NCBI GenBank assembly: GCA_000004695.1
Contig: CM000151.3
Coordinates: forward strand, 6,496,001 to 6,560,000
Direction of reading: 5' to 3'
DNA from: Dictyostelium discoideum
Taxonomy: Eukaryota
Length of the DNA stretch: 64,000 nt
Under the pieces are notes generated by a model, which was given only the letters and a program-made list of their open reading frames with translations, did no database searches and had not been told where the DNA came from. Positions 36,428 through 59,032 of the stretch are shown piece by piece. Numbering within the stretch: position 1 is the stretch's first letter; each line of letters opens with the position of its first letter. Position numbers and translations under genes: made by a program.

Positions 36428-37701
36428 TTATTTTTGTTGATATTTATTTGAACCTAAATCTTTACAAATTTCATAAACAGCAAAAGAAATGGCAACAGTT
36501 GGGACAACTTTAAAATAAGCAGGAATGATACCATGATAGAAAGCAACCAAACCTTCATTTGATAAGATTTTCTTTGTCGCATCCCAGCCATTTTTATAGA
36601 GTACTTTATTACCACCAATACCTTGAATCATCATTCTTCTTCTTAAAACATCCAAAGGATAGCAAACAGTCATAGTAACAGCACCACTAAGAGCACCACA
36701 AACAAAATCGCAAATCATATTTACACCTTTTTTCAATTCATTCTCATCAGAAGCAACAGAATTTATCAATAGCGATGAAGGCATTGTTGATGCCATAGTT
36801 GAACAACCGGATGTATTTGTTAAATTAATACCATTTTCACCAAGTTCATTTTCATAAATAAATGAGTTATTATTTTTATTATTATTATTATTATTATTAT
36901 TAATTGATGATGGTGTTGTAGTTGTTGTTGATAATGATGATGATGATATTTGATAATTTAAAATCATTTTTTTACAAATTATTTTAAAACCTTCATAAGT
37001 TGCAAAACTAATTGAAACCCAAGGTACAATTGAAGCAATGGAGGTACCCAAACCTTTGTAAAGACCTTTTACACCTTCATCCTTGTGAATTTTAAAGAAA
37101 CTATGAGTTATACCATTATAACGATGAGCTGCATAATCATTTGAACAAGATCCTTGAAGTGATAATCTTATTCTAACAACATCCAAAGGATATGTGAAAA
37201 AGGTTGAGGTAAGTCCAGCCATTGCACCAGAAAACATTGTTTGGGGAACTGTCATCTTCATTTCACTACCACTACCACAACCAACACCATTACCATCAAT
37301 ACCATTCTCAATCGAAGATGAAGATGGATGATTTGAAGAGTTGTCTAAAAAATGTTTTTTACAAAATTCATAAGTTAAAAATCGAATTCCAGAATTTGGG
37401 GAAACCTTTACAATGTTTGCGCCATTTCCTTTCCAAATTGATTTAAATCCTTCCCTCTTCACCATCTCTTTCATAGCAGCAATGCATCCAACATAACCTT
37501 GACTAAGATTTTGTGACATACCTTGAACTTGTTGAATAATCGTTAATCTTTCAAATCCTGCTGTTGCAGATCTCGATATTGCTCCAGCAATCGATCCTGA
37601 TACTAAATACTTTTAAAAATAAAATACAAATAATAAAAAAAAAATAAAAAATAAAAAATAAAATAAATTATTAGTATCATTATTTTAAAAATATTAAAGA
37701 G

Positions 37702-37751
<50 letters not shown>

Positions 37752-38156
37752 TACATTGACATTTTCTTTTGAAATTGATTTTTTTGAAACATCTAATTTT
37801 GAATTTGAATTGTTTTTATTATTTCCTTTTAAAATTTTATTTTGATTTTCGTTTTTAATAATATTGTTTAGAATACCATTTTTGGAAATTAAATTGTTAT
37901 TATTATTAATATTATTATTATTATTATTCTTATTATTATTGTTTAAATTTAATAATTTATTATTATTTGATTTTATTAATTTTTCTTTATTCAAATTATT
38001 GTTTACATTATTGTTCAATTGAATGATTAAGGAATTAGCAATATTGTTACCATTTTTGAGACTTTTATAAGTATTTAAGGTTTTGGATGGTCTATAGGTG
38101 TTGCTATTATTTTCTGTCGATTCTTTAAAGCTCTTTTTAAAATCAGAACTATTCAT
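36428..38156 (-). CDS. Mitochondrial substrate carrier family protein with an N-rich N-terminal extension; 2 exons
   Basis: Exon 1 is 38156..37755, with an ATG start, an N-rich sequence, then a GTAAGT donor in phase 0. Exon 2 is 37609..36428 after the acceptor TTTTAAAAG. The junction yields YLVSGSIAGAISRSATAGFERLTIIQQVQ, the first MCF signature helix. Further signatures are PLDVVRIRL and PLDVLRRRMM. The track shows only the part from an internal Met at 37519. Confidence 0.8.
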
Positions 38157-38212
38157 TTATATTAAAGGAGGGGAAGAGAAAAAAAAAAAAAAAAAAAAAA
38201 ATATTTTTCCTT

Positions 38213-39811: not shown

Positions 39812-39858
<47 letters not shown>

Positions 39859-40032
39859 GTTTTATGTGCAATAAATCAAATTCATAATTACCACCAATAA
39901 AAAATCCACAAAAAACTCACAATTTCACCACAATTACATATATAGATAAAATCAATTACATATATATATATATTTTTTTTTTTTTTTATTTTCAACAAAA
40001 ACAATACTCCCACATAAAGTAACCCCACCCCC

Positions 40033-40057
40033 ACTCACACACACACTAAATTACTTT
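40033..40057 (+). promoter_or_regulatory. CA-rich element (ACCCCACCCCCACTCACACACACAC), CAE/GBF-type, about 180 bp upstream of the 40235 ATG
   Basis: A conspicuous C/CA-rich island in otherwise more than 85% AT sequence. It resembles the CA-rich elements bound by G-box binding factor in post-aggregative Dictyostelium promoters. Confidence 0.4.
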
Positions 40058-40234: not shown

Positions 40235-41014
40235 ATGAATCAATCAAAACTACCAATAACAAAAATTTCAGAAACTGTTTTTAACCGCTTAAACCAATCA
40301 AATGATGTTATTAACAACACCAATAATAACACCACCAACAATAACAACAACAATAACAACAATAATAATAACACCAATAATAAAAATAATATAAATTATT
40401 TATTAAAACCAATTAATGAAATTAATGAAAATAAAATTTTAAATGATCCATCAAATGAAAATGGATTAAAACAATTATTTTACGAAATTAATAAATATTA
40501 TAATAATTTTGGGAGTAAATTAATATTTTTCTCATTAATTGGAAGTGAATCATTTAATTTGAATATTGAATCAAGTGATCAAGATTTCTTTGGAGTTTAT
40601 GAATGTGATATTGATCAAATTTTGTCATTTGAAAGTTACTATTACAATAGAATTCCAATTCAAGTTTTTCAAAATAACAACTCAAATAATTCATTACAAA
40701 AAGATAGAGATCGTGATAATATAATCAACCCAAATGAAACCATTATTCATTTAAAACCAGATATTACAATTCACGAAATTAGACATTTTTCAAAACTTTT
40801 ATTATTAGGAAATCCAAAATTAATTGAACCCTTATTCATTGAAAACTTTTGTTCATCAAGTCAATCATGGTTAGATTTAATTAAAAATAGAAAACTTAAT
40901 TTTTATACAATAACTTGTTTAACTCATTATTATTCAACTGTTAAAGTTTTATATTTTGATATTAAATCAATTTTTGAAAATGATAAAAAACAAAATGAAA
41001 AACAACAAAATGAA

Positions 41015-41059
<45 letters not shown>

Positions 41060-42520
41060 AATGAAAAATCATTAAATGATAGAAAAAGTATTTTTAAAAA
41101 ATCATATCATATAATTAGATTATTAATTGAAATGAATGATATTATTAATTATAAAGATATTAGAATTTATTTACCAAATCAATCAGAAGAAAGAAAATTA
41201 TTAATGAAAATTAGAGAAGGTGAAGAAATTGATATTCAATCTTGTTTTGAATTAGTGCAATCTAAATATTTAGAATTTGAATCAAAATTTAATGAATTAA
41301 AAAAAAATTCAACAAATGATTCTTTAATTAAATTAAATTCAGCTAGAGCATTACACGTTTTAAATGATTGGGTGGTTGATATTAGAAGAAATTCAATTGA
41401 AAATTCAAATAATTTAAATTCATTTAAAAAATATAAATTTGAAAATGAAAATCATCATGATGAATCAAATAATAGTTTTAAAATTGCAATGGATTTAATG
41501 AATAAAAATAATATTAAAGGTACTTTAATTTATTTTGGTCCTTCAGGTAGTCATTTACATGGTTTACAAGATGATGATCATAATGATGAAAATAGTAATG
41601 ATAATGAAAAGATTGATTGGATTGGTATTTATGCAGCGCCAACTGATGATATTGTTTCATTATTCCCACCTGCATTAAAACATGATTCAAGTGGTTTCAT
41701 AATGCAATCAAATGAACATATTGGTATAAATCTTAATCCAGCACCTGATAGACCAAATAATCAAAATAAAAAGGATTCATTCAGTAAAGGTATCATTTTA
41801 TATGAATTAAAATATGCATTGCAATTAATTGTAAATTGTTCCTATAGAGTTTTAGAATGTGTTTTCATGTCTTCAAATCAAGTACTCAATAATCATCCAT
41901 TCAAAAATAAATTTTATATTACAGATGCATGGAAAGATTTCATTAATCAAGTTTTAATCAATGATAATAATAATAATAAAACTTTTTCAAAATTATCAAA
42001 TTCAAATTTAATTCAACAATATTGGGGACTTGCAAAAGGAATTAGTATGAAGAATTCAACAATTTTTAAAATGGTTAAATCAAATTTGTTAAGAAAAAAA
42101 GATGATGCTATTACTATTGCTGAAGAAGATTTAGTTACTGATGATAGTATTTCAAAGAATTTATTCTTTTTAAATTATTTATTAATACAATGTAATACTA
42201 TATTAAATGGTATTGTTTTTAATGAAAATAATACAATTATCAATTCTCCAAATAATGAAATTTTATTAAAAGAAAAAGAAATACCATCTATATTCATTGA
42301 TAAACAATCAAAAGATTATCAATTTTTAATGTCATTAAAACATAACAAGCTAAACAAACTATCAATCATTCAATCATTAATAATTGATTCTGATTCAATT
42401 TTAGAAGAAATTAGAATTAAATTAGATACTTTAAAGAAAATACAAAGAATTGATCTTGTAGAATTTGAAACTATAAAATTATTAAATTCATTTTATAATA
42501 AAGTCAGAAAATCATTATAA
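40235..42520 (+). CDS. Large protein with two tandem predicted Pol-beta-superfamily nucleotidyltransferase domains (RlaP/PF10127-like), plus poly-N and poly-Q tracts; single exon, 761 aa
   Basis: The ATG is at 40235. Domain 1 reads LIFFSLIGSESFNLNIESSDQDFFGVYE (GS-x10-SDxD-hhGV). Domain 2 reads LIYFGPSGSHLHGLQDDDH...IDWIGIYA (GSHxxG...DW.GIY). Both fit the GS...[DE]x[DE] nucleotidyltransferase signature in the form found in bacterial RlaP-type predicted NTases. Confidence 0.65.
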
Positions 42521-42711: not shown

Positions 42712-42778
<67 letters not shown>

Positions 42779-42985
42779 ATAATTTTCAAATAAAAAAATC
42801 ATGAACCAATCTCAAAGTTTTTTTTTTAAAAAATTGGTGATATCAAAATTTGTTGGTTTAAAATAAAAAATTAAAATTTTAAATGTTTAGAAGGTTTGAT
42901 TACTGAGATTCGCCATGTTTTTTCATAATTTCATAATAATTATTAATAGATTTTTTCATAATTCAAATTCGATAGCATAACGTTC

Positions 42986-43159: not shown

Positions 43160-44179
43160 ATGTTACCAATAACAAATAAAGTTGCATTAATTACAAAAAA
43201 AGGATTTTCAGAATCATTTTCAATTGTTGATAATGAAATTCCAAAACCTAAAGGAAATGAAGTTTTAATTAAAGTTGATTATGTTGGTCTTAATAGATGT
43301 GATCTTTATTTTTCATTGGGACTTTATTTACCATTTGAAAATTATCCAAATGTATCAGGTTTTGAAGCTTCAGGTACTGTTGTAGAATTTGCAAATGATG
43401 AATTAGAGAATTCAAGTAAATTTAAAGTTGGTGATAAAGTTAGTGTAATTTATACTTGTGATCATAGAAAATATGGTACATTTGCAGAATATGCAGTTTT
43501 TCCAATTGGTTGTTTAGTTAAGAATAATGAATTATCAAGTCAAAAAGAAATTGCTGCAAATTGGATTTCATTTTTCACTGCATACTATGGTCTTGTTGAA
43601 TTTGCTCAAATTAAAAAAGGTGATTATGTAATTATCACCGCTGGTAGTGCTGGAACTTCTTTAGCTGGTATTGCAATTGCTAAATTTTTTGGTGCTCATA
43701 CAATCGTTACAAGTCGTAATGAAAAGAAGAAACAACAAATTTTAGATTATGGTGCTGATTATTTCGTTTCTCTTGACACTGAAGATATTGTTAAAAGAAC
43801 CTTTGAAATTACTAATGGTAAAGGTGCAAATATTATATATGACTCTGTTGGTGGACAAAGTGCTCAAAAATTATTTGAATCATCTTCACAATTTGGTAAA
43901 ATTGTATTCTATGGTAATATGAATCACTCAGAACCAACACCTCTCCCAATTTTAATTGGTCTTAAAAATTACTTAACAATCAAAGTTTTAAATACAAATG
44001 AATACCTTTATCAACCTGAATTTAATAAAAAAGCTATTGAATTTTTAAATTCAAATTTTCATCATTTTAAATCAATAGTTGGTAAAGAATTTATTGGTAT
44101 TGATTCATTGGTTGATGCTCTTAAATATTTAGAAACTGGTGATTTATTTGGTAAAGTTGTTGTAAAAGTTAATAATTAA
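43160..44179 (+). CDS. Quinone oxidoreductase / zeta-crystallin-like NADPH-dependent MDR-superfamily oxidoreductase; single exon, 339 aa
   Basis: N-terminal GroES-like fold (EVLIKVDYVGLNRCD). Rossmann motif ITAGSAGTSLAGIAIAKFFGAHTIVTSRNEKKKQ. No zinc-ligand Cys/His pattern is present, so it is a QOR-type enzyme rather than a zinc ADH. Confidence 0.85.
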   Translation: MLPITNKVALITKKGFSESFSIVDNEIPKPKGNEVLIKVDYVGLNRCDLYFSLGLYLPFENYPNVSGFEASGTVVEFANDELENSSKFKVGDKVSVIYTCDHRKYGTFAEYAVFPIGCLVKNNELSSQKEIAANWISFFTAYYGLVEFAQIKKGDYVIITAGSAGTSLAGIAIAKFFGAHTIVTSRNEKKKQQILDYGADYFVSLDTEDIVKRTFEITNGKGANIIYDSVGGQSAQKLFESSSQFGKIVFYGNMNHSEPTPLPILIGLKNYLTIKVLNTNEYLYQPEFNKKAIEFLNSNFHHFKSIVGKEFIGIDSLVDALKYLETGDLFGKVVVKVNN

Positions 44180-45242: not shown

Positions 45243-48200
45243 TTAACTTTTAAAAGTTTTTAGTTTATTTTGTAATCCATTTTTGAATTTTGTATCTTTT
45301 TTCTTTTTGATTATATGGTAAGCAATGGAAATGGCAATTACTGCAGCAAATGCAATGGAGCCAATAATTATACCAATAAGTTGTGGTGTTGTTAATTTTG
45401 ATTGATTGGGAGTACAAACTGAATTTTCATCATTTTTTGAAGTTGATTTACTATCTATTAATACTGAGAAATCTGGATCAATAATTATTGATTTTTGATA
45501 GTTTGGTATTGTTATACCTATATATGATTGTGAAGATGATGCAGTTTGAATTGAGTTCATTTTTGAATCTAATAATACATTTTCAATGGTCGAAATTTTT
45601 GAATCAATTATTGCTCTTTTAATAAATCTACCATAAAGTGAATGGTCATTAATTTGAATTTTAAAATAATTTGAATTATCTCCATTACTAGTTTCACCAA
45701 AATCTTTTAATGAGCAAATTTCTTTAGTTTTCGATGACTCAAATGATGCAGACATTACAAGTTGTAAATTATTTAATTGATTTGAAAATTTATATTCTGT
45801 AATTTCAATTGTATATTTAATACTTGATGGATACATTGTAATACTAGAATTTGCAAATTCTATAGTACTTGTATCTTTAAACCATTCTAATATAACTGTA
45901 ATATTTGTATTAAATGGTGTAGTTGAATTATTTTTTATACTTGTAAAGTATTGACTTTTATTTTGATTAATTTGAGTAAATATCCATCGATCAAATGGGT
46001 ATAAATTTATTTGATTTCCATTAAAATCTAATTCTCTAATTGATACGATTGAAATTAATGATTTATATAAATAATTTATACCAGAAGGTTGTTGGTTATT
46101 ATTATTATCTATGATTGGTATTTCAGTTGATGGTTGTGAAGTGTTAGTTGAAGGTTGTGGTATAATTACAACTTGTGCATTACAATCATTACCAATCCAT
46201 GGTTGGTAACAAACACATCCTTTTGATGAGCAAAAACCTTGTTTAGGTCCTCCACATATTGGTTCACCTAAACATGTTTGAGGTTTATTAGTTGGTGTTG
46301 GTAATTGAGTCGTAGTTGTTGGTGTTGGTGTATTAAGTGGTGAAACAGAAAGAAAGGAAAATAAAGGTGTAACTATGAATTCATTTGATTGTTGACCATT
46401 TTTTGTAACTACTCTGATGGTGAATGGTTTATCAGTTGGGTCAATATCTAGTATTAATAATGCAGTTGAAAAAATTATACTTGGAAAAGAAATTTGAGAA
46501 AATACTAAATCAGTTGAATATTTAATTTGTACATATTGAATCGAGGTTTTAAATCCTCTTCCTACAATCCATAATTCACCACCTGTTGATGAAATTTGAC
46601 TTGTTCTTAAAATTTCAATCTTTCTAACCAATTGAATATTTGACATTGAATAAATTGGAAATGCGGATGAAATGTACGTACTTGGGAATCCACTATAATA
46701 ACCACCATTATTAATGAAACCATAAACACTAAATACTATATCTGAATTATATCCAAACCCTACTGGTAATTCAATTTCACATGTATAATTTGCAGTTTTT
46801 GAATTTATAGATTTAATTTTCGATTCACATTGAATAATTTGTAATTCTGTTGATTCAATATAAACAATTGGATATTGTTCATTTTTTAAACCAGTATCTA
46901 AATCGACGGCTTGAAAATCAAATGCTATAACAATTGTTTGAGAATCATTTAAAATTGTTTTCACTGCACTAAACAAAGTTAATTCTGGTGGTGAAATATC
47001 GTAACCGTCATTTTCAGTTGTACATTTTTTATATATTTTATTTATAGTTGAATCACCTAAAAAATTTATAAATGGATTTCTAATACTCTCACATTGTTCA
47101 GATACTGAAAATTTAGCGAAATTACCTCGAGTATCGAATAAATAAACATCTGTAATGATATAATTTTGAGAAGCACATAAAATTGATATTTTAATATTAA
47201 TTTGATATTCACCATTATATTTATCACCACTAGTTAAATTTAAAGGTGTTAAATGAAATTTATAAGTTGAACTATCCATTTCACCTCTAACAATAATATC
47301 ACCATAATCAAATCCATTAATTTTATCACCTATTACAAATTTCCAACCAAATTCATTTGTAGTATTTATTTTTTCAACTTTATTAAAAATTGGACCATAA
47401 CTATCGAAATCTATTATTATTTTTATTGGAATTAGTAAAACAATAATATATATATATAACACTTGTATTATAACTTACTTGATGAAATTATAAATAATTG
47501 TGCTGATAATGGTAACATTGTACTATCTATTGGGTTATAATTTGGATTTGAATTTCCATAAAGTTTAAAAGGTATATGACCAGGTTGAGTGTTAGCAGGT
47601 ACAGTGAATTCAATTTGGAACATTGATGTTGATGAATTCCATTTTGAGAATCTAAAATCTGAACTATCTAAATCACCATTTTTTAATATTGAAACTGGAT
47701 CATTTAATAATAATGCAAAAGAGCTACCTTTATCAAATTCACCTTCATAACTGAAATAAATGATATTATTAACAGATTTATTTGTAACATCAATATTATT
47801 ATATAAAAATGATATATTTGTAATTAATACTGGATTTAGTTCGCCAAATGGTATTTCAAATTTCAATAAAGGACTAATTGAATAATATTCACCTCTTAGA
47901 TAGTTTATTCTATTACTTAATAAATTTGAAATTGTAAATTTAGTAATTGAATCTTTATATAAATCTACAACTGTTTCAAATTCCAATACACTACTATTAC
48001 TTTCACTATCAACTACCGATTCATATCTTAATGTGATATCTGACCCTAGATATATTGATGCCCCATAACCATTTGTATTCACTTTAAATCTAAATAAATA
48101 ACTTTCATCAAATAATAATTTACATTCAAATTCTAAAAGAGTTGATAATATTGAACTATTTAATATTTGAGCTTAATTTTAAAATTAAAATGTGTAAAAA

Positions 48201-49404
48201 AAAAAAATTAGAAATTTATTTATATTATTAATTTTTAATTTTTAATAATGTTATTATCATTATAATTTTAAATTTTATTAAAGTAAAAAAAAAAAAAAAA
48301 ATTAAGGAATTTTATTAATAAAATACATACCATATGGTGAAGTAACTGTTACAAAACTATTACTATTTTGAATAACAAAACTATGTGTAGGAGAATATGA
48401 ATATAAATACTCCAGGTGAGATTGCACATGCACGTATTTAAAATTATTACCATTGCTAAATCCATATGGCCATGTGTAGCTATTTTTGTACTCGTTCCAA
48501 AACATTACAAGTGGATAAAATCCGTATTGTGTTTCTGTATCAAACTTAACAAAAAACAATGATGAAAAAAGTAATGACACACCATGTCCAGATGACAAAT
48601 ATGTATTATTTATATTAGCGATACTAAATTCTATGGTTTGTTTTTAAATATAAAGATTGTTAATAATTAATATAATATAATAAAAATAAAAAAAAAATAA
48701 AAAAAAAAAAAGATAATATTAAATACCTTTTAAATATATTATCGGAGTTTCATAAACTTTAACAAAATTTTTTGAAAAAAAAGAATAAATTACTTCTGGT
48801 GTATGGATATACAATTGGCCTAAATAGGTAATAAAATTTTCATCTTGATAAATTGGTGTGAAATCTGCATTCTTACTATTTCCATCATCTACGTATAAAT
48901 AAGGCTCATAATCATTACTAGTTTTATTAATAGTTACTGAATAAACGGTAGAACATCCTAATCCAAACTCTGAAACATTTGTGGTTTCGTTTGGATAATA
49001 GTTTATTTTTGAATTACTGATATCTAGATTATAATCTATTTAATGTTTCAAAAAAAAAAAAAAAAAAAAAAATTAAAATAAGCAAATTTTGGAAAATATG
49101 AAAATAGATGAAATTGAAAAAATTACCAAGATATGTAGAAGCTGGGATAGTAACGACAATTGTATGAGGGCCATAAAATAATAAAGAAATGTTATAATTT
49201 TCAACTGTTCCCCCATCCAACTCCTCAAGGGAAATTAAGAAATAATTTGGATTTAATGGGTAAGCACTACCACCAAAAATTACCAAATTATTTAATGGAT
49301 ATTTTAATCCAATTAATTGAATAATTCCATTACCATATAAATTATTTTTTTTAAAGTAATTTGGTTTTAAAATTTTTACTTTCATTAATTCGTAGTCAAT
49401 CACT

Positions 49405-49457
<53 letters not shown>

Positions 49458-49899
49458 GTTAGAATTTAAAATCAAATAATTTTAAATAAAATTATATTTT
49501 AATTAAATACAAACTTTCACATGAATAAGATATGTTTAAATCAACTTTTATTGTTGGATTATTTAAAAGATAGCAAACAATATTTGATGTATAACTTCCA
49601 AAGGACAATGCAGTATGAGTAATACCAATTATACTTCCTGTTCTATCAGATCTTATCATTTCAGAATAATCAAAATCTGTTGTAAACATCAATTGATCAC
49701 CTTCATCCATTGCTGGTTCAACGTAACAAAGAATTTCAAATGAAAAATCACAAAATTCCCTATCACTATATTGAGGATACACTTTATAATTTTTTGGATT
49801 TGATATATCTGTAATTTTCAATGTTTGACAATTACAAAAATTAATCAAAACAAAACAAAAATAATAAATAATAAAAAATTTTAATAAATTTATATTCAT
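45243..49899 (-). CDS. Large type-I transmembrane glycoprotein with a signal peptide, many N-glycosylation sites, a Cys-rich EGF-like module and one C-terminal TM helix; possibly Tgr (IPT/TIG) adhesion-family-like; 6 exons, about 1360 aa
   Basis: Exons are 49899..49515 (signal peptide MNINLLKFFIIYYFCFVLINFCNCQ; donor GTTTGT), 49402..49127 (GTAATT), 49036..48727 (GTATTT), 48630..48331 (GTATGT), 48132..47479 (GTAAGT) and 47410..45243. Every exon is phase 1 to 1, with clean (A/T)nAG acceptors. The five track ORFs on this strand are these exons. The EGF-like module is CLGEPICGGPKQGFCSSKGCVCYQPWIGNDCNAQV. The TM is LIGIIIGSIAFAAVIAISIAYHII, followed by KKKKD. Confidence 0.65.
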
Positions 49900-55148: not shown

Positions 55149-55275
55149 ATATATTATATATATATGATATATATTTATAAAATATATATATTTAATGTAT
55201 ATTTATAAATATATTATATGTATAATAAATGTGTGTGTGTGTGTGTGTGTGTGTGTTGGTGTGTTGTTGTATTAT
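55087..55275. repeat. Compound (TA)n / (GT)n microsatellite
   Basis: Imperfect (TA)n at 55087-55200, followed by (GT)13 and GTT repeats at 55231-55275. Confidence 0.9.
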
Positions 55276-57192: not shown

Positions 57193-57445
57193 TGCGTGGG
57201 AATATAATTGTAAAAAAAAATAATTATTTTTTTTATACATAAATAGTTTAAATCTACTAGTTTGAATAGCGTTACCACCACCACTACCACCACTACTACT
57301 ACTACAGTTTCTATTTTTAAATTGTATATCATTTGGTACAATATAATAACCAATGAATTTATTACTATTATTTTTTTTAATTTTTTTTTTTTTTAATTTT
57401 TTTTTTTTTTTTATTAAAATAATTTATTCGTTCCAAGATACATAT

Positions 57446-57510
57446 GGGGGGGTGTGGGTTTGTGTGTTTTAGTGGGTAAAAGTGCTATATCTGTGTTTGT
57501 GTGTTTTAAC
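57446..57510 (+). promoter_or_regulatory. G/T-rich G-box-like island (GGGGGGGTGTGGGTTTGTGTG...GTGTTTGTGTG) in a gene-free interval
   Basis: A strong compositional outlier resembling GBF-binding G-box sequences. No flanking ORF lies within 2.5 kb. Confidence 0.35.
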
Positions 57511-58928: not shown

Positions 58929-59032
58929 AACCACACACACACACAAAAAAAAAAAAAAAAGAAAAAAAAAAAATAATAATATTCACACACACACAACACA
59001 CGATATGCATTACACGCCCCACCATTTTTTTC
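58929..59032 (+). promoter_or_regulatory. CA-rich boxes (CCACACACACACACAA ... CACACACACACAACACACG ... CACGCCCCACCA), the inverse of the 57446 G-box, about 1.3 kb upstream of the 60293 gene
   Basis: Seen directly in the sequence. This is CAE-like sequence in Dictyostelium promoter terms. Confidence 0.35.

What the first reader, a model, noticed from the sequence alone, without database searches (positions are those of the whole stretch)
40235..42520. Tandem RlaP-like predicted nucleotidyltransferase domains in one 761-aa eukaryotic protein, with a GBF-type CA-rich element upstream
Two separate segments carry the GS-x(9-12)-[S/D]DxD...hhGV/GIY core of Pol-beta-superfamily nucleotidyltransferases (LIGSESFNLNIESSDQDFFGVY and FGPSGSHLHGLQDDDH...DWIGIYA). 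This is the shape seen in the bacterial RlaP (RNA-ligase-associated, PF10127) predicted NTases. A tandem duplication inside a long poly-N/poly-Q Dictyostelium protein is not a described architecture as far as I know, and may reflect horizontal acquisition followed by duplication. The CA-rich island at 40033-40057 (ACCCCACCCCCACTCACACACACAC) suggests post-aggregative developmental control through GBF. Other possibilities are a pseudo-enzyme scaffold or a nucleotide-second-messenger synthase.
Basis: partly seen in the sequence, partly recalled or inferred. Interest (0 to 1): 0.75.

Follow-up and report, generated by a model that had tools for sequence, protein, structure and literature searches.

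The report
Amoeba tandem RlaP nucleotidyltransferase, half dead
This Dictyostelium gene encodes two fused copies of an RNA-repair-type nucleotidyltransferase (RlaP): the first copy keeps its catalytic residues and the second has lost them, a layout shared across amoebae and not, as far as I could find, described.

Summary
The 761-aa ORF at 40235-42520 (+) is real. It holds two complete RlaP (PF10127) modules.

- **Module 1 (aa 75-400)** passes Pfam's threshold. It keeps GS, SDQD and the third Asp (D176).
- **Module 2 (aa 412-761)** is weak against Pfam by itself. It is clearly homologous to module 1 (profile-profile E 5e-20 to 7e-42) and to single-domain RlaPs (E 6e-45).
- **Module 2 lacks two of the three catalytic carboxylates.** Asp1 is K459. 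Asp3 is G519, which is Gly in 36 of 37 relatives.
- **The architecture is not specific to Dictyostelium.** It occurs in two paralogues throughout Dictyostelia, and in Physarum, Mastigamoeba, Pelomyxa, Balamuthia and Stenamoeba. All second modules group together, so the duplication is old.
- **Bacillus phage G gp218 has a similar active-plus-degenerate tandem**, apparently evolved independently.

The most likely function is template-independent nucleotide addition to RNA 3'-OH ends, as shown for bacterial RlaP. The dead module would act as a built-in partner. This is inferred, not shown.

The upstream CA-rich element exists at 40022-40046, not 40033-40057, and fits the GBF half-site consensus. 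Regulation by GBF could not be tested.

Verdict: new variant of a known kind, of moderate interest.

The parts
40022..40046 (+). CA/C-rich element ACCCCACCCCCACTCACACACACAC, 189-213 nt upstream of the ATG. It contains at least 2 non-overlapping matches to the C-strand form of the GBF half-site (T/G)G(T/G)G(T/G)G(T/G).
   Evidence: Exact position. Half-site count: 5 such clusters in the 64-kb window against 0.08 in shuffles. Consensus taken from PMC2257962. The element is conserved in a 92-96% identical D. discoideum assembly, with a 10-nt CT/CA expansion. Function not tested.
40235..42520 (+). Complete single-exon gene, 761 aa plus stop codon: a tandem RlaP protein.
   Evidence: The identical protein is a called gene on GCA_054883475.1.
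40235..40456 (+). N-terminal low-complexity region (aa 1-74, poly-N at aa 35-46). Absent or different in non-Dictyostelium orthologues.
Evidence: Alignment.
40457..41434 (+). Module 1 (aa 75-400): complete RlaP module, predicted to be catalytically competent. It comprises a Pol-beta NTase domain, a helical domain and a terminal helix (LNDWVVDIRR).
   Evidence: PF10127 39.9 bits. PHROG 388 E=2.2e-15. Single-domain RlaP profile against M1, E=2.2e-73. 31 columns are at least 85% conserved. Model pLDDT is mostly above 90.
40541..40585 (+). Module 1 catalytic motif: G103-S104 ... S114-D115-Q116-D117 (hG[GS]-x9-SDxD).
   Evidence: GS and SDxD are present in 36 of 37 tandem relatives; the exception is a truncated sequence. 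They are 100% conserved in the 33-sequence module alignment.
40757..40762 (+). Module 1 third catalytic Asp: P175-D176, at the start of a beta strand (DITIHE).
   Evidence: Invariant in the 37-sequence alignment. A strand is predicted at this position.
40964..41083 (+). Lineage-specific K/Q/N-rich insertion with poly-Q (aa 244-283), inside the helical domain of module 1.
   Evidence: It is shorter in the D. discoideum assembly protein P0001.
41468..42517 (+). Module 2 (aa 412-761): a complete but degenerate RlaP module (pseudo-NTase), ending in the terminal helix LNSFYNKVRKSL.
   Evidence: hhalign M1 against M2, E=4.7e-20 and 7.3e-42. Single-domain RlaPs against M2, E=5.7e-45. PHROG 388 E=3.4e-6. 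PF10127 only 14.9 bits for this sequence alone. Only 9 columns are at least 85% conserved.
41546..41617 (+). Module 2 remnant of the NTase motif. G438-S439 are kept. The position of Asp1 is K459. Asp2 is kept as D461 (DWIGIY). The acidic run D446-D448 lies in a variable loop.
   Evidence: Residue table: Asp1 position variable, Asp2 kept in 35 of 37. Alignment.
41789..41791 (+). G519: glycine at the position of the third catalytic Asp in module 2.
   Evidence: Gly in 36 of 37 tandem proteins. 97% in the module alignment. Invariant in the 21-sequence alignment A6.

Best explanation
The gene encodes a eukaryotic, Amoebozoa-wide member of the RlaP (PF10127) nucleotidyltransferase family. Two whole RlaP modules are fused head to tail.

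Module 1 keeps every residue needed for two-metal nucleotidyl transfer: GS, D115, D117 and D176, plus a conserved K/Y/H/R set in its helical domain.

Module 2 keeps the fold but has lost two of the three metal-binding carboxylates and most cleft residues. It is a fixed pseudo-enzyme.

The most likely mechanism is as follows. Module 1 adds one or a few nucleotides, without a template, to the 3'-OH of RNA ends, as shown in vitro for Pseudomonas RlaP. Module 2 acts as a covalently attached partner, an intramolecular pseudo-dimer that shapes or extends the RNA-binding surface or stabilises module 1.

What is shown here: the architecture, the homology, the residue states, the phylogenetic spread and the predicted fold. 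What is inferred: the RNA substrate, the activity, and the partner role of module 2.
For: **Family and duplication**
- Pfam RlaP at 51.1 bits.
- The two halves are homologous to each other over their full length.
- Module 2 matches single-domain RlaPs at E=5.7e-45 and phage NTase family PHROG 388 at E=3.4e-6.

**Residues**
- Module 1's GS/SDxD/PD are present in 36 of 37 tandem relatives.
- In module 2, Asp1 is lost and Asp3 is Gly in 36 of 37.
- 31 columns are strongly conserved in module 1 against 9 in module 2.

**Fold**
- AF2 model of aa 75-761: pLDDT 82.2, pTM 0.84. Both modules show the same order of strands and helices.

**Age of the architecture**
- It is found in Dictyostelia (two paralogues), Physarum, Mastigamoeba, Pelomyxa, Balamuthia and Stenamoeba.
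- Second modules are monophyletic in the NJ tree, bootstrap 68/100.

**RNA link**
- Bacterial RlaP adds 1-2 NMP to RNA 3'-OH, and not to DNA (PMC12776372).
- YTH (RNA-binding) domains are fused to RlaP in 4 of 10 long relatives scanned, including Balamuthia and Platysulcus.

**Recurrence of the layout**
- Phage G gp218 has an active module followed by a degenerate one. It matches the model over both modules at E=3e-14.
Against: - There is no biochemical or expression data for any eukaryotic member.
- Eukaryotic genes are not in operons. The RNA-ligase association that defines bacterial RlaP is absent here: the neighbours are a mitochondrial carrier and a Zn-ADH-like gene.
- The closest solved folds modify small molecules, proteins or DNA rather than RNA (aminoglycoside and lincosamide NTases, the AMPylase DrrA, HalB). 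Fold alone therefore does not fix the substrate.
- A few relatives have D or E at the Asp1 position of module 2 (P0012, P0013, P0014, P0017). The Asp3-to-Gly change is still present in them.
Confidence: 0.6

Rival explanations
1. Both modules are active nucleotidyltransferases, giving a two-headed enzyme. This is what the first reader's motif reading implies.
For: Module 2 keeps the GS dipeptide and one Asp (D461) just before the conserved hhGhY strand. Dictyostelid sequences have acidic runs (DDD) in the preceding loop.
Against: Asp3 is Gly in 36 of 37 sequences, and the Asp1 position is variable (K, I, L, T, Q and others). The acidic loop is not conserved outside dictyostelids. Only 9 columns of module 2 are strongly conserved, and the helical-domain K/Y/H/R set of module 1 is missing. 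All characterised Pol-beta NTases need three carboxylates (PMC12776372).
Confidence: 0.04
2. Module 1 nucleotidylylates a small molecule or a protein rather than RNA. Examples would be an AMPylase or a xenobiotic/antibiotic-modifying enzyme useful to a soil amoeba.
For: The best solved structural matches are aminoglycoside and lincosamide nucleotidyltransferases and the AMPylase DrrA.
Confidence: 0.12
3. The protein synthesises a nucleotide second messenger, like cGAS or CD-NTases, for signalling or immunity.
Against: No PADLOC model matches either module. The only NTase-superfamily Pfam family reported at E up to 10 is RlaP; no CD-NTase-type (SMODS) family appears. Characterised RlaP extends RNA ends rather than making cyclic or free oligonucleotides.
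Confidence: 0.05
4. The whole protein is a non-catalytic scaffold, with both modules being pseudo-enzymes.
For: Module 2 is degenerate. The Dictyostelium orthologues carry long low-complexity insertions.
Against: All catalytic residues of module 1 and about 25 further positions are kept at 88-100% across distant amoebozoans at only about 34% overall identity. This is the signature of a maintained active site.
Confidence: 0.06
5. The tandem is a recent, Dictyostelium-specific event: horizontal acquisition followed by local duplication.
For: PF10127 is overwhelmingly bacterial and viral, with few eukaryotic members.
Against: The same two-module protein, with the same Asp3-to-Gly change, occurs in Discosea, Archamoebae, Myxogastria and Dictyostelia. 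Second modules form one group. No close phage relative was found: tblastn identity is at most about 30% and covers module 1 only.
Confidence: 0.03

Closest known systems
Bacterial RlaP (PF10127), e.g. Pseudomonas fluorescens and P. aeruginosa RlaP encoded in rtcB-rlaP-rtcA operons (Carruthers, Fatma & Huang 2025, PMC12776372); phage T4 NrdC.11 is in the same family
   Same: Same Pfam family. Module 1 has the same GS / DxD / third-Asp set and the same three-part build: an NTase domain, a helical domain, and a last helix predicted to return to the NTase domain. Each module spans the full single-domain profile.
   Different: The bacterial enzymes are single modules of about 250-400 aa encoded next to RNA ligases. 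This protein is a fusion of an active and a dead module. It is a stand-alone eukaryotic gene with no ligase neighbour and carries poly-N/poly-Q insertions. Its activity is untested.
Bacillus phage G gp218 (519 aa, annotated 'NrdC')
   Same: Active RlaP module followed by a degenerate RlaP-like module that also ends in a W-L-I-D-h-h-D-R-type terminal helix. Its BFVD model aligns with the model here over both modules (E=3.2e-14, TM 0.48/0.61).
   Different: Its second module has lost even the GS and DxD remnants. That module is closer to its own first module (E=3e-12) than to the eukaryotic second modules (E=0.0024 over 42 columns), so the fusion looks independent.
Kanamycin nucleotidyltransferase ANT(4') and related ANT/Lnu enzymes (1kny, 6un8, 3jyy, 7uy4)
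   Same: N-terminal Pol-beta NTase domain plus a C-terminal helical (HEPN-like) bundle. These are among the best solved fold matches. From my own knowledge, not tested here: KNTase works as a homodimer whose active sites are built from both subunits. That offers a precedent for why a second, even inactive, copy could be useful.
   Different: No detectable sequence relationship. The substrates are antibiotics. These enzymes are two separate identical chains rather than a fused active/dead pair.
YTH-RlaP fusion proteins of other protists (Balamuthia KAL6069548.1, Platysulcus EP00753_P016362)
   Same: They contain the same RlaP modules, with an intact first module followed by a degenerate one, and come from overlapping lineages.
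   Different: They carry an N-terminal YTH RNA-binding domain that the window protein lacks. The window protein has only a low-complexity N-terminus.

Membership tests
RlaP / PF10127 | Sequence match to the family profile above the curated threshold | tested here: met
   Whole protein 51.1 bits against a cut-off of 23, E=1.9e-13. Module 1 alone 39.9 bits. Module 2 alone is below the cut-off (14.9 bits), but its orthologues reach E=9e-10 and it matches single-domain RlaPs profile-to-profile at E=5.7e-45.
RlaP / PF10127 | Three strictly conserved catalytic aspartates (hG[GS]...DxD... third D) | tested here: met
   Met for module 1: G103-S104, D115, D117, D176, present in 36 of 37 relatives. Not met for module 2: K459 in place of Asp1 and G519 in place of Asp3, with only D461 kept. 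The protein qualifies as a family member through module 1. Module 2 is a degenerate copy.
RlaP / PF10127 | N-terminal NTase domain, C-terminal helical domain and a final helix that rejoins the NTase domain | tested here: inconclusive
   Both modules align over the full length of single-domain RlaPs, including the terminal W-h-h-x-h-R helix. The AF2 model gives the expected order of secondary structure in both.
RlaP / PF10127 | Genomic association with an RNA ligase (RtcB or a 5'-P ligase), the origin of the family name | tested here: not met
   The neighbours are a mitochondrial-carrier gene (- strand) and a Zn-ADH-like gene (+ strand). The D. purpureum neighbours are a PUF/NOP9 gene and a 6PF2K gene. 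Operon-type linkage is not expected in a eukaryote, so this says little.
RlaP / PF10127 | Addition of 1-2 NMP to RNA 3'-OH ends | not testable with these tools
   Known only for Pseudomonas RlaP (PMC12776372).
CD-NTase / cGAS-type second-messenger synthases and other defence NTases | Sequence match to the profiles of known defence-system NTases | tested here: not met
   No PADLOC hit for either module at E up to 0.1. The only NTase-superfamily Pfam family reported at E up to 10 is RlaP; no CD-NTase-type (SMODS) family appears.
GBF-regulated post-aggregative genes of Dictyostelium | Paired G-box/CAE half-sites (T/G)G(T/G)G(T/G)G(T/G) in the promoter | tested here: met
   At least 2 non-overlapping half-sites at 40023-40045, 190-212 nt upstream of the ATG. 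Consensus from PMC2257962. The element is retained in a close relative, and a C-rich box ACACCCCATCCCCCC lies about 90 nt upstream in D. purpureum. Four other such clusters occur in the same 64 kb, so the element is not specific to this gene.
GBF-regulated post-aggregative genes of Dictyostelium | Induction after aggregation, and loss of that induction in gbfA-null cells | not testable with these tools
   No expression data were reachable. The dictyBase gene identifier could not be recovered with the tools.

The most novel reading that the evidence does not exclude
Amoebozoa, and possibly the giant viruses that infect them, possess a dedicated RNA 3'-end 'nucleotide-restoring' enzyme that works as an obligate asymmetric pseudo-dimer: one live RlaP head and one dead RlaP head fused in a single chain. 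In this reading it forms part of a eukaryotic RNA-damage or anti-ribotoxin response, working upstream of RtcB-type ligation. The independent appearance of the same live-plus-dead fusion in Bacillus phage G would then mean that RlaP enzymes in general act as dimers using only one active site.
Probability: 0.3. Interest if true: 0.65.

Novelty: new variant of a known kind. Interest (0 to 1): 0.45.

Why it matters
RlaP is a large family of more than 10,000 sequences, and its first biochemistry appeared only in late 2025. Its eukaryotic members are unstudied.

This work shows that amoebae keep a conserved fusion of an active and a catalytically dead RlaP module, often in two paralogues per species. 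That yields a concrete, testable structural hypothesis (an asymmetric pseudo-dimer) in a genetically tractable organism, Dictyostelium.

If module 1 repairs or tails RNA ends, this would be a eukaryotic counterpart of bacterial and phage RNA-repair accessory enzymes. The recurrent YTH fusions in related protists would then tie it to recognition of modified RNA.

The result also corrects the idea that the tandem is a recent Dictyostelium oddity.

Tried and rejected
1. **PDB sequence searches.** The protein and an N-half profile found nothing meaningful, only poly-Q artefacts. The PfRlaP crystal structure was not among the PDB matches in any of the three PDB searches.
2. **First AlphaFold run.** With a 6-sequence alignment it was too poor to use (pLDDT 54.6). 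A 37-sequence alignment fixed this.
3. **Word-indexed homologue search.** The full protein was swamped by low-complexity candidates and returned 5 hits. The C-half profile found only dictyostelids. The exhaustive HMM search was needed.
5. **AFDB50 fold search.** Not available, so the UniProt/dictyBase identifier of the AX4 orthologue, and with it expression data, could not be obtained.
6. **Phage searches.** tblastn against phage genomes found only distant single-module relatives: 24.5% identity for the window's module 1, and up to about 30% for the Balamuthia relative P0020, first module only. The IMG/VR scan likewise gave only module-1-type matches. No viral donor was identified.
7. **Burroughs & Aravind 2016.** The paper that named RlaP is not held. 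What I say about it comes from papers that cite it.
8. **Phage G descent.** I considered that the phage G tandem shares descent with the eukaryotic tandem. I rejected this because gp218's second module is nearer to its own first module.
9. **Gene-model fusion.** I considered that the two modules might be a fusion artefact. I rejected this because the ORF is uninterrupted and transcript-derived orthologues (Stenamoeba, Physarum) have the same layout.
Full report

Yes. Window 40235..42520 (+) is a single uninterrupted ORF of 761 codons plus stop. The identical protein is a called gene on a 4.9-Mb contig of a public Dictyostelium assembly (GCA_054883475.1).

The window is 92-96% identical at the DNA level to a D. 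discoideum assembly, whose orthologue (P0001, 747 aa) is 94% identical in protein. The source is therefore a member or close sibling of the D. discoideum group.

The protein is 15% Asn, with a poly-N run at aa 35-46 and a poly-Q run at aa 262-275.

**2. Are the two segments RlaP-like beyond chance?**

Pfam assigns PF10127 (RlaP) to the whole protein at E=1.9e-13. That is 51.1 bits against a curated cut-off of 23, in two stretches.

Scored separately, the N half reaches 39.9 bits. The C half reaches only 14.9 bits (E=0.022), below threshold. Three independent tests settle the C half:

- Four of five orthologous C halves hit PF10127, best E=9.1e-10.
- The window's own C half hits phage family PHROG 388 'nucleotidyltransferase' at E=3.4e-6.
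- Profile-profile comparison of N halves with C halves gives probability 99.3%, E=4.7e-20 over 278 columns with 5-6 sequences. With 33 sequences each it gives E=7.3e-42. A profile of single-domain RlaPs matches the C-module profile at E=5.7e-45 over 231 columns.

The alignment runs from the helix before the GS strand to the last helix: ...NDWVVDIRR in module 1 and ...NSFYNKVRKSL in module 2. The whole RlaP unit was duplicated, not only the NTase core.

**3. Anatomy**

| Region | Residues | Notes |
|---|---|---|
| Low-complexity N-terminus | aa 1-74 | poly-N; disordered in the model |
| Module 1 | aa 75-400 | G103-S104, S114-D115-Q116-D117, P175-D176, E181, G192-N-P-K-x-I-E198, helical domain with conserved K288, Y291, H292, R295, E299, R320, R327 |
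| Module 2 | aa 412-761 | G438-S439, D461, E524, G535, R538, E541, G598, R758 |

In module 1, an N-rich loop (aa ~140-170) and a K/Q-rich insertion (aa 244-283) are lineage-specific and predicted to be disordered.

In module 2, the position homologous to Asp1 is K459 and the position homologous to Asp3 is G519.

That loop is not conserved outside dictyostelids.

**4. How general is this?**

An exhaustive HMM search of 1.84 billion representative proteins with a full-length dictyostelid profile found 4,652 relatives at E up to 1e-3. The top of the list holds two-module proteins of about 480-710 aa. Source names place them as follows:

- Dictyostelium (discoideum, citrinum, firmibasis, purpureum), Polysphondylium, Heterostelium, Cavenderia, Tieghemostelium and Acytostelium. 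These species often have two paralogues, a 'long' clade that includes the window gene and a 'short' clade.
- Physarum.
- Mastigamoeba and Pelomyxa.
- Balamuthia and Stenamoeba.

In a 37-sequence alignment, module 1's GS/SDxD/PD set is present in 36 of 37; the exception is a truncated sequence. In module 2, Asp3 is Gly in 36 of 37, Asp2 is kept in 35 of 37, and the Asp1 position is variable.

Module 1 has 31 columns at 85% or more conservation (mean pairwise identity 0.34). Module 2 has 9 (identity 0.25).

In a neighbour-joining tree of modules, all 33 second modules fall on one side, and the first modules plus single-domain proteins on the other. Exact monophyly of the second modules was recovered in 68 of 100 bootstrap replicates. 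Together with the shared Asp3-to-Gly change, this indicates one duplication before these amoebozoan lineages diverged. It was not a Dictyostelium event.

**5. Fold**

With 37 sequences, AlphaFold2 gave a confident model of aa 75-761: mean pLDDT 82.2, pTM 0.84. Both modules show the same succession of elements:

- helix
- strand
- GS turn
- strand carrying the DxD position
- strands carrying the third-Asp position
- two short helices
- long helical bundle
- terminal helix

The solved structures that match best are all Pol-beta NTase-plus-helical-domain proteins:

- Foldseek: 3c18 and KNTase/ANT(4'), probability 0.97 but E only 0.04-0.1.

No closer solved structure was found.

**6. Viral relatives**

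Against predicted viral structures, the best hit is Bacillus phage G gp218 (519 aa). It aligns across both modules at E=3.2e-14, TM 0.48/0.61.

Two giant-virus 'nucleotidyltransferases' (Terrestrivirus 515 aa, Yasminevirus 596 aa) also align over about 730-765 columns at E of about 3e-5 to 6e-5, though with poor TM scores. Many single-module phage NTases match at E around 1e-5.

I retrieved gp218. Its first module is a good RlaP (PF10127 E=4e-21, GS...SDVD). Its second is a more degenerate copy. That second module is closer to its own first module (E=3.3e-12) than to the eukaryotic second modules (E=0.0024 over 42 columns).

The 'live plus dead' fusion therefore seems to have arisen at least twice. 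This argues that a second RlaP-shaped body is functionally useful.

Sequence searches of phage genomes and IMG/VR gave only distant single-module matches, so no donor can be named:

- Window module 1 against phage genomes: 24.5% identity.
- Balamuthia relative P0020 against phage genomes: up to about 30%, first module only.
- IMG/VR scan: up to 28%.

**7. Mechanism**

Shown:
- Family membership.
- An intact catalytic set in module 1.
- A degenerate but conserved module 2.
- An ancient fusion.

Established for the family:
- Pseudomonas RlaPs use only RNA among cellular macromolecules.
- They add one or two NMPs to 3'-OH ends.
- They prefer nicked-tRNA mimics.
- They can restore aminoacylation of a tRNA that has lost a nucleotide before ligation.
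- Their structure is an NTase domain plus a helical domain, with a cleft lined by three Asp and basic residues (PMC12776372).

Supporting an RNA role in eukaryotes:
- Four of ten longer relatives scanned carry an N-terminal YTH domain, including Balamuthia and Platysulcus.

Inferred:
- Module 1 performs RNA 3'-end nucleotide addition.
- Module 2, lacking a metal site and most cleft residues, serves as a fused partner.
- From my own knowledge, KNTase-type enzymes are dimers with shared active sites, which offers a precedent for the partner role.

I put about 0.6 on this overall. That breaks down to about 0.9 on the architecture and the live/dead assignment, and about 0.55 on RNA 3'-tailing as the activity.

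**8. Rivals**

- Two active heads: contradicted.
- Small-molecule or protein NTase: only generic fold similarity.
- Second-messenger synthase: no PADLOC hit and no CD-NTase-type Pfam match.
- Wholly inert scaffold: contradicted by the conservation of module 1.
- Recent Dictyostelium-specific HGT plus duplication: contradicted by the distribution.

An ancient transfer from bacteria or viruses into an early amoebozoan or another eukaryote remains plausible. The family is overwhelmingly prokaryotic and viral. This was not tested rigorously.

**9. The upstream element**

The string ACCCCACCCCCACTCACACACACAC is at 40022-40046, which is 189-213 nt upstream of the ATG.

The element lies in a roughly 2-kb divergent intergenic region shared with a mitochondrial-carrier gene, whose start is about 1.85 kb away.

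It contains at least two non-overlapping matches to the published GBF half-site (T/G)G(T/G)G(T/G)G(T/G), read on the C strand. Five such paired clusters occur in the 64-kb window, against 0.08 in composition-matched shuffles. These elements are non-random in this genome but not unique to this gene.

The element is retained, with a 10-nt CT/CA expansion, in the 92-96% identical assembly. The D. purpureum orthologue has ACACCCCATCCCCCC about 90 nt upstream.

This is compatible with GBF control, but no expression or binding evidence was available.

**10. Novelty and score**

PF10127 is a known family, and public databases already tag these proteins with it. The presence of 'a small number' of eukaryotic RlaPs has been noted.

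I could not find the following described in the held literature:
- The conserved two-module, live-plus-dead architecture.
- Its spread across Amoebozoa, with two paralogues in dictyostelids.
- The recurrent YTH fusions.
- The parallel fusion in phage G.

I rate this a new variant of a known kind. Interest is 0.45: solid and testable, but it does not overturn anything.

Noticed in passing
window 57445-57467 (G strand on +), 55230-55264, 58931-58945, 58985-59023: Four further clusters of paired G-box/CAE-type half-sites, for example TGGGGGGGTGTGGGTTTGTGTGT at 57445-57467. One of them, at 55230-55264, is largely a GT microsatellite. Observed 5 clusters in the window against 0.08 expected from shuffles.
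   Followed up: partly
window 36428-38178 (- strand) and 43160-44179 (+ strand); 45243-49899 (- strand): Neighbouring genes: a two-exon mitochondrial-carrier gene (PF00153) divergent from the RlaP gene; a 339-aa Zn-dependent alcohol dehydrogenase/quinone-oxidoreductase-like gene (PF08240, PF00107) downstream; and a large gene for an about 1,376-aa protein with DUF7035/DUF7034/ComC_SSD domains. None is related to RNA repair.
   Followed up: partly
L001 1475-3667 (D. purpureum GL871020.1): The D. purpureum orthologue's gene span (2,193 nt) is about 72 nt longer than its 706-aa product requires, and the span does not translate directly. It therefore has a short intron where the window gene is a single exon. 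Its neighbours (PUF/NOP9, 6PF2K) differ from those in the window, so synteny is not kept.
   Followed up: no
proteins P0073 (Balamuthia), P0055 (Platysulcus), P0048, P0115: Recurrent fusion of an N-terminal YTH (m6A-RNA-binding type) domain to RlaP modules in protists. Platysulcus P0055 (1,025 aa) appears to carry three NTase-like modules.
   Followed up: partly
L004 10216-11775 (Bacillus phage G gp218, JN638751.1 150215-151774): Phage G encodes an active RlaP module fused to a strongly degenerate second RlaP-like module. The duplication looks independent of the eukaryotic one. An annotated RNA ligase (gp240) lies about 18 kb downstream.
   Followed up: yes
BFVD entries A0A3G4ZQ79 (Terrestrivirus, 515 aa) and A0A5K0U9N0 (Yasminevirus, 596 aa): Two giant-virus nucleotidyltransferases (Yasminevirus is, to my knowledge, an amoeba-infecting virus; not checked here) align with the model over about 730-765 columns, which suggests two-module proteins. 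Their sequences could not be retrieved, so their relation to the amoebozoan tandem is open.
   Followed up: no
window 39820-39853 and 42712-42790: Very long homopolymer A tracts flank the gene: about 34 A upstream, and A-rich runs of more than 60 nt downstream. This is typical of Dictyostelium intergenic DNA.
   Followed up: no
proteins P0147 (1,258 aa) and P0111 (765 aa) from the exhaustive search: Other multi-module relatives. P0147 has two RlaP stretches followed by a Methyltransf_24 domain, and P0111 has two RlaP stretches after a ~190-aa N-terminal region with no Pfam match. Their origin is unknown, as the sequences are unnamed.
   Followed up: no
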